From the NCBI RefSeq assembly GCF_024298765.1, contig NZ_CP101210.1: a DNA stretch of 64,000 bases; one strand, 5' to 3'. Shown one piece after another: positions 63,066 through 64,000 of the stretch (its first letter is position 1; each line of letters opens with the position of its first letter). The stretch comes from Escherichia coli. GTDB lineage: Bacteria; Pseudomonadota; Gammaproteobacteria; Enterobacterales; Enterobacteriaceae. The position numbers are program-made.

Positions 63066-64000
63066 TAAATAAAACGGGAGGCGAAGGTGCCTCCTGTTTT
63101 TAGATTGTTTTCAATTGATTGATAATGAAAGGATTCGCTTGCAAAAGCAGGAGCAATTTTCGGGGTGCTCCGGTAGGTTGACGGCGTTTGGTTTCCCAGC
63201 TTTTGACCAGGTCATAACTTACCCCTACGGCGACAGCAAAATCTTGCTGACGTAAACCCGTTGCTTCACGGATCGCTTTTACATCGATTTCGCTAAAAGT
63301 ATGGACGTGCTCTGGTTCAGGCGTTTCTTCACCCTTTTCGATGCGTACCATTTCTTCTGCGCTGGCAAGAAGATCAGCAAATAATTCATCTTTCATCTGT
63401 TTTCAATGCCTCCGTTGACATTTCGGCCATGGTGGAATTTGTGGAGCTTCAACATTAAAGCAGCTTCTCGGACAATAGTTTCAATGCCTTTCTTTGTTCT
63501 TCTGTTAAATCATCCTGTTCATTTTTAGGATAAATCAACGCCAGATAAATTCGGCCATTGCGTGTTACGTTGTAATAAATTATCCGAATGCCACCCCGTT
63601 TCCCCATTCCAGAACGGTTCCAGCGAATTTTTCTAAAACTGCCTGTGCCTGCGATAATGTCACCGGCAGTGGGATCTTGAATGAGTAGTTCCTGAAAAGC
63701 CCGGAACTCATCATCAGGTAGCAATAACTGGCGGCGTTTGCTAAATCCTTGTAGTTCAATAAACGTGAACATAATGCATCCTGCGGTCTATTGATAATTA
63801 TAAGTGTACCGTGTACATATTGGTAGCTAATTAGATATAAAAAAACCCCTTATCCGTTTGGATAAGGGGTCAATGAGATTTCAGCTGATTACAGCTTCGG
63901 ACCAGCCGCTACCAGCGCGGCACCCGCAGGGGTGTCGGTGTATTTATCGAAGTTGTCGATAAACAGTTTCGCCAGCGTTTCAGCTTTTTCCTGCCACTGT

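What the first reader, a model, noticed from the sequence alone, without database searches (positions are those of the whole stretch)
63100..63772. RelE/ParE-fold toxin plus XRE-HTH antitoxin pair between envZ and pckA
A 105-aa toxin (GxG..RK.R....G.GKRGG.RIIYY core, HigB-2-like) sits upstream of a 98-aa XRE/YiaG-like HTH antitoxin, both on the minus strand and wedged between the pckA and envZ terminators. From memory, envZ and pckA are directly adjacent in K-12, so this is a strain-variable addiction or phage-defence module. The 58-bp gap between toxin and antitoxin is longer than usual.
Basis: partly seen in the sequence, partly recalled or inferred. Interest (0 to 1): 0.5.

Follow-up and report, generated by a model that had tools for sequence, protein, structure and literature searches.

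The report
HigBA2-type toxin-antitoxin pair, envZ-pckA
This is an ordinary, already annotated two-gene toxin-antitoxin cassette of the Vibrio HigB2/HigA2 type, carried between envZ and pckA by about a quarter of E. coli strains; it is real and probably functional, but not new.

Summary
A 105-aa ORF (63455-63772, minus) lies 58 bp upstream of a 98-aa ORF (63100-63396, minus), between the envZ and pckA terminators.

- **Toxin:** it is a clear homologue of Vibrio cholerae HigB2 (E 1.3e-23, 49% identity). All four catalytic residues and the IIYY strand are kept, and the predicted fold matches HigB2 crystal structures (TM 0.75-0.85).
- **Antitoxin:** it is a HigA2-like XRE helix-turn-helix protein and passes the NCBIfam NadS cutoff.
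- **Operator:** a 13-bp palindrome, TGTAC-N3-GTACA, abuts the -10 box. It occurs once in the 64-kb window and is conserved upstream of orthologues in more than 20 genera, so it is the likely operator.
- **Distribution:** about 1,328 of 5,426 complete E. coli genomes carry the cassette. K-12 has envZ and pckA adjacent.
- **Existing annotation:** RefSeq and UniRef already label the proteins RelE/ParE-family toxin, HigB-2 and NadS.
- **The 58-bp spacer:** this length is normal for enterobacterial orthologues (-4 to 85 bp). The spacer is not conserved and not structured.
- **Phage defence:** nothing supports it.

Minor extras: the antitoxin is more conserved than the toxin. The toxin has decayed repeatedly beside an intact antitoxin, including in 107 E. 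coli genomes such as CFT073 and Nissle.

Verdict: ordinary and low interest.

The parts
63455..63772 (-). Toxin gene, 105 aa (RefSeq WP_000493756.1). HigB2-type RelE-superfamily toxin, predicted to be a ribosome-dependent mRNA endonuclease. Catalytic residues R50, R63, Y81, K83; IIYY at 64-67.
   Evidence: ORF. PDB phmmer match to V. cholerae HigB-2, E 1.3e-23. Pfam PF06296, E 1e-5. PHROG 5869, E 1e-33. AF2 pLDDT 89.5. Foldseek top hits are HigB2 structures, TM 0.75-0.85. The catalytic residues are invariant in 21 sequences; their identity in VcHigB2 comes from PMC5416850.
63100..63396 (-). Antitoxin gene, 98 aa (RefSeq WP_000650976.1, 'NadS family protein'). HigA2-like: an N-terminal toxin-neutralising segment (about residues 1-22) followed by a C-terminal XRE helix-turn-helix dimerisation and DNA-binding domain (about 39-97).
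   Evidence: ORF. NCBIfam NadS 75.1 bits, cutoff 60. Pfam HTH_31 and HTH_3. PDB HigA-2, E 5e-5 over residues 4-94. AF2 model has a helix at 2-20 and the HTH domain at 39-97 with pLDDT above 90.
63397..63454 (-). 58-bp untranslated spacer between toxin and antitoxin. It carries the antitoxin's GGAGG Shine-Dalgarno sequence 12 nt before the ATG. No other function was detected.
   Evidence: In orthologues the spacer length runs from -4 to 85 bp, and only the 3' ~24 nt are semi-conserved. The RNA fold is no better than shuffled sequence, z +1.3. No Rfam match. No promoter-like site.
63805..63817 (.). Predicted operator: the perfect palindrome TGTAC-N3-GTACA, lying between the -35 and -10 positions of the toxin promoter.
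   Evidence: One occurrence in the 64-kb window against 0.01 expected. Found only within 100 nt upstream of the toxin ATG in 24 of the 27 cross-species loci and in the intact E. coli loci fetched. The GTAC...TACA core is invariant in the 21-genus upstream alignment. Antitoxin binding is inferred and was not tested.
63797..63802 (-). Consensus -10 box TATAAT of the predicted operon promoter. The -35 position (63820-63825, TACCAA) is weak.
   Evidence: Read from the sequence. It aligns with the TAnAnT box that follows the -35 TTGATT in orthologues. The generic promoter scan did not call it because of the weak -35.
63779..63782 (-). Toxin Shine-Dalgarno sequence AGGA, 6 nt before the ATG.
   Evidence: Sequence. 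The CAGG(G/A)A block is conserved in the 21-genus alignment.
63071..63100 (.). Bidirectional intrinsic terminator shared by envZ (plus strand) and the toxin-antitoxin operon (minus strand). The antitoxin stop codon overlaps its T/A run.
   Evidence: Terminator scan hits on both strands. The hairpin is also present in empty-site strains.
63844..63871 (-). Intrinsic terminator for pckA that arrives with the cassette. It occupies the place where orthologues elsewhere have a distal second operator and a -35 box.
   Evidence: Terminator scan: 12-bp stem and T-run. Absent from empty sites. Alignment A3 shows the hairpin in the E. coli, Citrobacter and Kluyvera versions only.
63101..63876 (.). The whole strain-variable segment, about 776 bp at 42-48% GC, that replaces about 32 bp of intergenic DNA found in empty-site strains.
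   Evidence: Alignment with strains 1162C and ATCC 8739. Composition profile against 55-60% GC in envZ.

Best explanation
This is a chromosomal type II toxin-antitoxin operon of the HigB2/HigA2 type. The toxin gene comes first and both genes are transcribed from one promoter.

The 105-aa toxin is a RelE-like endonuclease. By inference it enters the ribosomal A site and cleaves translating mRNA, using R50, R63, Y81 and K83.

The 98-aa antitoxin is modular. Its nearly invariant N-terminal ~22 residues are inferred to fold onto the toxin and inactivate it; in V. cholerae this works by displacing helix alpha3 and sliding the IIYY strand so the catalytic Arg flips out. Its C-terminal XRE helix-turn-helix domain is inferred to dimerise and bind the palindrome TGTAC-N3-GTACA next to the -10 box, repressing the operon.

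The operon ends at the envZ bidirectional terminator. The cassette is low-GC accessory DNA present in about 24% of E. coli. The 58-bp spacer is a non-conserved linker carrying the antitoxin's ribosome-binding site.

Shown here: homology, fold, conserved catalytic residues, the conserved palindrome, purifying selection, and distribution.

Inferred: toxicity, mRNA cleavage, neutralisation and operator binding.
For: - **Toxin homology:** E 1.3e-23 to V. cholerae HigB2 over residues 3-100, 49% identity. The AF2 model (pLDDT 89.5) superposes on HigB2 crystal structures at TM 0.75-0.85, with ParE and RelE toxins next.
- **Active site:** the VcHigB2 residues R51, R64, Y82 and K84 and the 65-IIYY-68 repeat (PMC5416850) align to R50, R63, Y81, K83 and I64-Y67. 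The four catalytic positions are invariant in 21 sequences.
- **Antitoxin:** NadS model above cutoff, HTH_31/HTH_3, HigA-2 E 5e-5 full length. The AF2 architecture is an N-terminal helix plus an HTH domain.
- **Operator:** the palindrome is unique in the window and lies only upstream of the toxin in 24 of the 27 cross-species loci. It is invariant in the 21-genus alignment. The V. cholerae operator sits in an analogous position, from after the -35 over the -10 (PMC11006873).
- **Selection:** cross-genus dN is 0.11-0.23 for the toxin and 0.04-0.16 for the antitoxin, with dS saturated. Toxin differences within Escherichia are mostly synonymous, for example 6 synonymous and 0 non-synonymous against E. 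albertii.
- **Annotation and relatives:** RefSeq and UniRef use the same family names. Family members stabilise plasmids and cleave RNA in Acinetobacter (PMC5906591). Homologues occur on 900 plasmids.
Against: - No experiment on this E. coli locus turned up in the searchable library.
- The generic promoter scan does not call the promoter, because the -35 is weak.
- Three of the four base-contacting residues of VcHigA2 differ here (R68->D62, E71->K65, N72->S66; R77->R71 is kept). The palindrome spacing also differs (N3 against GC-N5-GC). The operator assignment therefore rests on conservation, not on transfer from the crystal structure.
- The antitoxin's Shine-Dalgarno sequence lies 12 nt from the ATG and there is no translational coupling, so how an excess of antitoxin is secured is unknown.
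- One 'HigB-like' toxin, Salmonella SehA, turned out not to be an RNase (PMC12817084).
- The toxin has been lost repeatedly beside an intact antitoxin, which shows it is dispensable.
Confidence: 0.8

Rival explanations
1. The cassette is mainly kept for its antitoxin. NadS would act as a stand-alone transcription factor, or as an 'anti-addiction' immunity protein against incoming HigB2-type toxins, with the toxin a dispensable and decaying passenger.
For: - The antitoxin is more conserved than the toxin in the same 18 Enterobacterales genomes (87% against 78% mean pairwise identity). Its dN is about half the toxin's.
- The toxin is frameshifted or truncated beside an intact 98-aa antitoxin in 5 of 27 species representatives.
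- The toxin is inactivated in 107 E. coli genomes, including CFT073, Nissle 1917 and E2348/69, by a stop at codon 22.
- One strain has an IS3 insertion in the toxin.
Against: - In this window the toxin is intact, as it is in about 92% of carrier genomes.
- Where intact, it is under purifying selection.
- The palindrome occurs only at the cassette's own promoter in the 64-kb window and in all loci fetched, so no other target was seen.
- Plasmid-borne relatives have antitoxins only 45-48% identical and lack the palindrome, so cross-talk is not evident.
- In the toxin-null E. coli allele the operator is also half-deleted. That looks like decay of the whole module rather than domestication.
- High conservation of the N-terminal segment is also expected from its dual role in HigA2 (PMC11006873).
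Confidence: 0.12
2. The toxin is not an mRNA endonuclease. It would inhibit growth by another route, as Salmonella SehA does by binding and inhibiting RNase III.
For: SehA was predicted to be a HigB-like RNase but shows no endoribonuclease activity and instead blocks RNase III (PMC12817084). So homology-based assignment in this superfamily can fail.
Against: - SehA lacks the active-site residues and has an extra C-terminal helix.
- Here all four residues shown by mutagenesis to matter in VcHigB2 are invariant.
- The model superposes on HigB2 over its full length.
- SehA is reported as related to P. vulgaris HigB (25% identity). The toxin here gave no Pfam or PDB match to any HigB-family entry other than V. 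cholerae HigB-2.
Confidence: 0.04
3. The pair is an abortive-infection or phage-defence module, whose toxin is released when phage infection shuts off host transcription.
For: - Family members occur in some phage or prophage records (9 records).
- Both proteins have strong PHROG matches.
- The locus is strain-variable, as defence genes often are.
Against: - No PADLOC model matches the toxin, and the antitoxin gives only generic HTH hits.
- There are no neighbouring defence genes; the flanks are the core genes envZ and pckA.
- The papers read on this family describe plasmid and cassette stabilisation and stress response, not defence.
Confidence: 0.04

Closest known systems
Vibrio cholerae HigB2/HigA2 (superintegron higBA-2; PDB 5JAA, 5JA8, 8A0X)
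   Same: - Toxin-first operon.
- Toxin 49% identical, with the same fold, the same four active-site residues and the same IIYY sliding strand.
- Antitoxin with an N-terminal neutralising segment and a C-terminal XRE HTH domain.
- Inverted-repeat operator with a TGTAC half-site between the -35 and -10.
   Different: - Antitoxin only 29% identical.
- Three of the four base-contacting residues differ.
- Operator is TGTAC-N3-GTACA instead of TGTACGC-N5-GCGTACA.
- It lies between two core genes rather than in an integron cassette.
- No biochemical data exist for the E. coli pair.
Acinetobacter baumannii HigBA2 (plasmid pAB120) and other plasmid-borne 'RelE/ParE toxin + NadS' pairs (e.g. Klebsiella pKpN01-CTX, Salmonella p12-2388.2)
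   Same: - Same two protein families in the same order.
- RefSeq annotates the Klebsiella and Salmonella plasmid pairs with the same two names.
- The Acinetobacter system is a ribonuclease, is autorepressed by antitoxin and complex, and stabilises plasmids (PMC5906591).
   Different: - Toxins 39-53% identical and antitoxins 45-48% identical.
- The palindrome found here is absent from the two plasmid loci examined.
- These pairs are plasmid-borne rather than chromosomal.
E. coli RelE/RelB
   Same: [quoted passage not shown]
   Different: - Antitoxin-first order.
- RelB is a ribbon-helix-helix protein with a C-terminal neutralising region.
- No detectable sequence match to RelE in the PDB search.
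Proteus vulgaris Rts1 HigB/HigA (defining higBA) and E. coli K-12 HigBA (ygjN-ygjM)
   Same: Inverted toxin-first order, a RelE-superfamily toxin and an XRE HTH antitoxin.
   Different: - Different toxin subfamily; nothing from it appeared in the Pfam or PDB sequence searches.
- PvHigA does not cover or remodel the active site (PMC5416850).
E. coli YiaG (NCBIfam PRK10072)
   Same: A small XRE HTH protein of similar length that aligns over the full length (E 4e-18).
   Different: It scores 65.5 bits against a cutoff of 110, so it is a paralogous family rather than the same one.

Membership tests
HigB2/HigA2-type type II toxin-antitoxin system | Toxin homologous in sequence to V. cholerae HigB2 | tested here: met
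   phmmer against PDB: E 1.3e-23, residues 3-100 of 105. 49% identity.
HigB2/HigA2-type type II toxin-antitoxin system | RelE/ParE-superfamily fold of the toxin | tested here: met
   AF2 pLDDT 89.5, pTM 0.83. Foldseek top 11 hits are all HigB2 chains, TM 0.75-0.85, followed by ParE and RelE toxins.
HigB2/HigA2-type type II toxin-antitoxin system | RelE-like active-site residues (VcHigB2 R51, R64, Y82, K84) and the IIYY sliding strand | tested here: met
   R50, R63, Y81 and K83 are invariant in 21 sequences. I64-I65-Y66-Y67 is present. Residue roles come from PMC5416850.
HigB2/HigA2-type type II toxin-antitoxin system | Toxin gene upstream of antitoxin gene in one operon | tested here: met
   Same strand, toxin first, 58-bp spacer, no terminator between the genes and one terminator after the antitoxin. 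The order is conserved in all 27 related loci. Co-transcription itself was not measured.
HigB2/HigA2-type type II toxin-antitoxin system | Antitoxin with an N-terminal neutralising segment plus a C-terminal XRE HTH dimerisation and DNA-binding domain | tested here: met
   HigA-2 E 5e-5 over residues 4-94. HTH_31 and HTH_3. AF2 model has a helix at 2-20 and the HTH domain at 39-97. The N-terminal 22 residues are near-invariant in Enterobacterales.
HigB2/HigA2-type type II toxin-antitoxin system | Inverted-repeat operator overlapping the promoter, bound by the antitoxin | tested here: inconclusive
   A conserved palindrome is present at the right place. Its spacing and the recognition residues differ from V. 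cholerae. Binding cannot be tested here.
HigB2/HigA2-type type II toxin-antitoxin system | Toxin arrests growth by ribosome-dependent mRNA cleavage, and the antitoxin neutralises it | not testable with these tools
   Requires a kill/rescue assay and cleavage assays.
NCBIfam NF041265 NadS (equivalog) | Whole-protein score at or above the curated cutoff (60 bits) | tested here: met
   75.1 bits, residues 5-96 on model positions 3-92 of 94. RefSeq annotates it as nadS.
Pfam PF06296 (RelE, formerly DUF1044) | Match to the family profile | tested here: met
   i-Evalue 1e-5, 26.2 bits, residues 44-104. The match is partial and modest.
YiaG (NCBIfam NF007481 / PRK10072) | Score at or above the curated cutoff (110 bits) | tested here: not met
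   65.5 bits.
MqsA antitoxin (TIGR03830 / PF15731) | Score at or above the cutoff; N-terminal zinc-binding CxxC domain | tested here: not met
   31.1 bits against 61.8, covering the HTH part only. Pfam E 0.11. The sequence contains no Cys residues.
Known anti-phage defence systems (PADLOC-DB 2.0) | Match of the effector (toxin) to a defence-system model | tested here: not met
   No families for the toxin at E up to 0.1. The antitoxin gives only generic HTH hits.

The most novel reading that the evidence does not exclude
NadS, the HigA2-like antitoxin, has a selected function of its own. The grounds are that it evolves more slowly than its toxin and repeatedly outlives it, in five species representatives and in the CFT073/Nissle/E2348-69 lineages. 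One possibility is chromosomal immunity against incoming HigB2-type plasmid or phage toxins. Another is regulation of other genes. The envZ-pckA cassette would then be a case of antitoxin domestication.
Probability: 0.12. Interest if true: 0.45.

Novelty: already known. Interest (0 to 1): 0.15.

Why it matters
It matters little beyond bookkeeping. The cassette adds one more accessory type II toxin-antitoxin module to the E. coli pan-genome, and databases already recognise it.

Practical value is modest:
- It is a clean presence, absence or toxin-null marker at a fixed chromosomal site. It is absent from K-12 and O157, intact in O104:H4 and many avian and human isolates, and toxin-null in CFT073, Nissle and E2348/69.
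- It gives a ready-made natural series (intact, toxin-null, orphan antitoxin) for studying how toxin-antitoxin modules decay.
- The predicted operator TGTAC-N3-GTACA is directly testable, and it differs from the V. cholerae HigA2 operator.

Tried and rejected
- **Hidden element in the 58-bp spacer (internal promoter, RNA structure, sRNA).** The promoter scan was negative, the RNA fold was weaker than shuffles (z +1.3), there was no Rfam hit, and neither length nor sequence is conserved across orthologues. Rejected.
- **A third allele at the site in strain HS-02.** The antitoxin query matched only 46 nt inside a 177-aa 'hypothetical protein'. The region is homopolymer-ridden assembly junk. Rejected as an artefact.
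- **Literature on this exact locus.** Searches for envZ/pckA/toxin-antitoxin, the RefSeq accession, 'NadS' and 'NadS family' found nothing specific. The origin of the name NadS could not be traced. A paper mentions a nadS gene in K-12 BW25113, but I could not locate it, and a distant blastn search finds no DNA-level paralogue in K-12.
- **Transfer of the V. cholerae operator to E. coli.** The half-site is similar, but the spacing and the contact residues differ, so I relied on cross-genus conservation instead.
- **Cross-talk with plasmid-borne relatives.** Antitoxins are only 45-48% identical and the palindrome is absent. Not supported.
- **SehAB as the closest enterobacterial relative.** SehA is described as related to P. 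vulgaris HigB and lacks the active site.

Full report
**1. The observation**

The six-frame ORF list shows two ORFs on the minus strand. One is 63455..63772 (105 aa, MFTFIELQGF...) and the other is 63100..63396 (98 aa, MKDELFADLL...). They are separated by 58 untranslated bases (63397-63454), and no in-frame upstream start could lengthen the second ORF.

envZ ends at 63068. Its terminator hairpin (63071-63100) scores on both strands and directly abuts the antitoxin stop codon. A second hairpin with a T-run (63844-63871, minus strand) follows the pckA stop at 63889-63891. The description is accurate in every detail.

**2. What the proteins are**

*Toxin.*
- It matches V. cholerae HigB-2 chains in the PDB at E 1.3e-23 over residues 3-100, with 49% identity.
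- It also matches Pfam PF06296 'RelE' modestly (E 1e-5) and PHROG 5869 strongly.
- An AlphaFold2 model built on 21 orthologues (pLDDT 89.5, pTM 0.83) superposes on every HigB2 crystal structure at TM 0.75-0.85. ParE and RelE toxins are the next hits.
- The HigB2 structure paper (PMC5416850) identifies R51, R64, Y82 and K84 as the active site by mutagenesis. It also identifies the 65-IIYY-68 repeat as the strand that slides when the antitoxin binds. These align to R50, R63, Y81, K83 and I64-Y67 here, and the four catalytic positions are invariant in all 21 aligned sequences.

*Antitoxin.*
- It exceeds the curated cutoff of NCBIfam NadS (75.1 bits against 60). It fails the YiaG model (65.5 against 110) and the MqsA model (31.1 against 61.8).
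- It has Pfam HTH_31 and HTH_3 matches and matches HigA-2 chains over almost its full length at E 5e-5, with 29% identity.
- Its model has an N-terminal helix (2-20, lower confidence), a linker, and a confident five-helix HTH domain (39-97). This is the modular architecture described for VcHigA2.

RefSeq calls the pair 'type II toxin-antitoxin system RelE/ParE family toxin' (WP_000493756.1) and 'NadS family protein' (WP_000650976.1). UniRef names the toxin cluster 'Toxin HigB-2'.

**3. Regulatory anatomy**

Reading the minus strand upstream of the toxin gives these elements, in order:
- the pckA terminator;
- an A/T-rich stretch;
- a weak -35 (TACCAA);
- the perfect palindrome TGTACACGGTACA (63805-63817);
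- two bases later, a consensus TATAAT (63797-63802);
- AGGA, 6 nt before the ATG.

Aligning 111 nt upstream of the toxin from 21 genera shows otherwise divergent DNA (51% mean column identity). Within it the GTAC...TACA core of this palindrome is invariant, and it always sits just before a TAnAnT box. Most genera also have a good -35 (TTGATT) and a second, distal copy about 30 bp upstream. The envZ-pckA versions (E. coli, Citrobacter, Kluyvera) have the pckA terminator there instead.

The pattern TGTACNNNGTACA occurs once in the 64-kb window, against 0.01 expected. In 24 of the 27 cross-species loci and in the intact E. coli loci fetched, it occurs only within 100 nt upstream of the toxin ATG. 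That includes marine Amphritea, Thalassolituus and Photobacterium.

V. cholerae HigA2 binds TGTACGC-N5-GCGTACA, positioned from after the -35 over the -10 (PMC11006873). The half-site and the position resemble what is found here. The spacing differs, and three of the four base-contacting residues differ (R68->D62, E71->K65, N72->S66; R77->R71 is kept; from the alignment). I therefore call the palindrome the probable operator on the strength of its conservation. Binding is an inference.

**4. The 58-bp spacer**

Across orthologues the toxin-antitoxin distance runs from -4 (overlap, Kluyvera) through 29-85 bp in Enterobacterales, and is 12-15 bp in marine relatives. A Salmonella plasmid copy overlaps by 4 nt and a Klebsiella plasmid copy has 48 nt.

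Only the last ~24 nt, which hold the ribosome-binding site, are semi-conserved. The E. coli spacer folds no better than shuffled sequence (z +1.3), matches no Rfam family and contains no promoter-like site. It is an ordinary variable linker. The only oddity is that the GGAGG lies 12 nt from the ATG, whereas relatives have GAGG at 5 nt.

**5. Distribution and history**

- The 1-kb query is fully covered in 1,324 of 5,426 complete E. coli genomes. The antitoxin gene is present in 1,330 genomes, always once and always chromosomal.
- K-12 (MC4100), ATCC 8739, O157:H7 and others have envZ and pckA 75 bp apart.
- The alignment with empty sites shows about 776 bp (63101-63876) replacing about 32 unrelated bp, with no flanking direct repeats. 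GC is 42-48% against 55-60% in envZ.
- The same cassette sits between envZ and pckA in E. albertii (100% protein identity), two Citrobacter species and two Kluyvera species. It sits elsewhere in Leclercia, Klebsiella, Budvicia, Yersinia, Photorhabdus, Edwardsiella and others.
- Homologues below 60% identity are on 900 plasmids, especially in Acinetobacter, and in nine phage-collection records.

**6. Selection and decay**

In 18 Enterobacterales the antitoxin is more conserved than the toxin: mean pairwise identity is 87% against 78%. Cross-genus dN is 0.04-0.16 for the antitoxin and 0.11-0.23 for the toxin, with dS saturated, so both are under strong purifying selection. Within Escherichia the differences in intact toxin alleles are mostly synonymous.

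The toxin is nevertheless dispensable.
- It is frameshifted or truncated next to an intact 98-aa antitoxin in 5 of 27 species representatives.
- In E. coli, a 42-mer specific for a stop at codon 22 (GAT AAG TAG) hits 107 genomes, including CFT073, Nissle 1917 and E2348/69. The wild-type 42-mer hits 1,221.
- The same number of genomes, 107, carries a 7-bp deletion that removes half the palindrome. The two lesions are therefore probably linked, and the whole module looks dead in that lineage.
- One strain has IS3 inserted in the toxin's 5' end.

The window's own copy is intact in all parts and identical to strain 104.

**7. Mechanism**

The best-supported reading is a canonical HigBA2-type type II module. 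The toxin would be a ribosome-dependent, RelE-like mRNA endonuclease. The N-terminal segment of the HTH antitoxin would hold it inactive, and the antitoxin would also repress the operon at the palindrome. Confidence is 0.8.

Shown here: homology, fold, active-site conservation, the conserved operator-like palindrome, selection and distribution.

Inferred: toxicity, cleavage, neutralisation and DNA binding.

Rival readings:
- an antitoxin-centred or domesticated role (0.12);
- a non-RNase mechanism like Salmonella SehA, which lacks the active site that is conserved here (0.04; PMC12817084);
- phage defence, for which PADLOC gives no toxin match and the flanks are core genes (0.04).

**8. Comparison and novelty**

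The pair meets every sequence-testable criterion for the HigB2/HigA2 family. It is not a member of the P. vulgaris HigBA, YiaG or MqsA families. RefSeq and UniRef already recognise it in more than a thousand genomes. I found no experimental paper on this particular locus in the searchable library, but nothing about it would surprise a specialist.

I rate it 'already known', with interest 0.15. The small additions from this work are the predicted operator, the finding that the antitoxin is more conserved than the toxin, and the catalogue of decayed alleles.

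Noticed in passing
L031 (E. coli CFT073, NZ_CP158446.1 422912-425608), corresponding to window 63707-63715 and 63804-63817: CFT073, Nissle 1917, E2348/69 and others (107 complete genomes) carry an allele with a stop at toxin codon 22. The same number of genomes (107) carries a 7-bp deletion that removes half of the operator palindrome. The nadS ORF stays intact.
   Followed up: yes
L025, L026, L027, L028, L030 (Photorhabdus bodei, Enterobacteriaceae B14, Photobacterium ganghwense, Phytobacter ursingii, Kluyvera sichuanensis): The toxin is frameshifted or reduced to 28-58 codons while the antitoxin remains intact, at 98 aa (86-94% identical to the window's) in four of the five loci and 101 aa (about 61% identical) in Photobacterium. 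Across Enterobacterales the antitoxin is more conserved than the toxin (87% against 78%), which is the reverse of the usual expectation.
   Followed up: partly
L004 (Escherichia albertii NBRC 107761) 3208-3580 and beyond: Downstream of a cassette whose proteins are 100% identical to the window's, there is only a ~80-aa 3' fragment of envZ. A short duplicated fragment of the pckA 3' end follows, and then unrelated ORFs. This looks like the scar of an imported E. coli-like segment or a local rearrangement.
   Followed up: no
L035 (E. coli 36C_1_fosA3, NZ_AP045736.1): An IS3-family element is inserted in the 5' end of the toxin gene, leaving an 89-aa annotated remnant and cutting the operon off from its promoter and operator.
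   Followed up: no
L040 (E. coli HS-02, NZ_CP172818.1) 1013-1546: The envZ-pckA interval of this 'complete' assembly is homopolymer-ridden junk, annotated as a 177-aa hypothetical protein. It is an assembly artefact, not a new allele.
   Followed up: yes
PLSDB records NZ_OL790696.1 (E. coli, 4.80 Mb) and NZ_OL790812.1 (Proteus mirabilis, 4.09 Mb): Two chromosome-sized records are filed as plasmids in the plasmid collection. The E. coli one has two places matching the toxin, so that genome holds a second, diverged HigB2-like paralogue.
   Followed up: no
E. coli K-12 BW25113 (NZ_CP009273), position not found: A PIRT-Seq paper (PMC12350097) reports expression of a PGAP-annotated 'nadS' gene in K-12, which lacks this cassette. 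That would be a diverged, possibly orphan NadS-family gene. It has no DNA-level similarity to the window's antitoxin. I could not trace the origin of the name NadS.
   Followed up: partly
window 63082-63101 and 63143-63162: A 20-nt imperfect inverted repeat (75% complementary) pairs the 3' arm of the envZ terminator with sequence inside the antitoxin's 3' coding region. It is probably chance.
   Followed up: no
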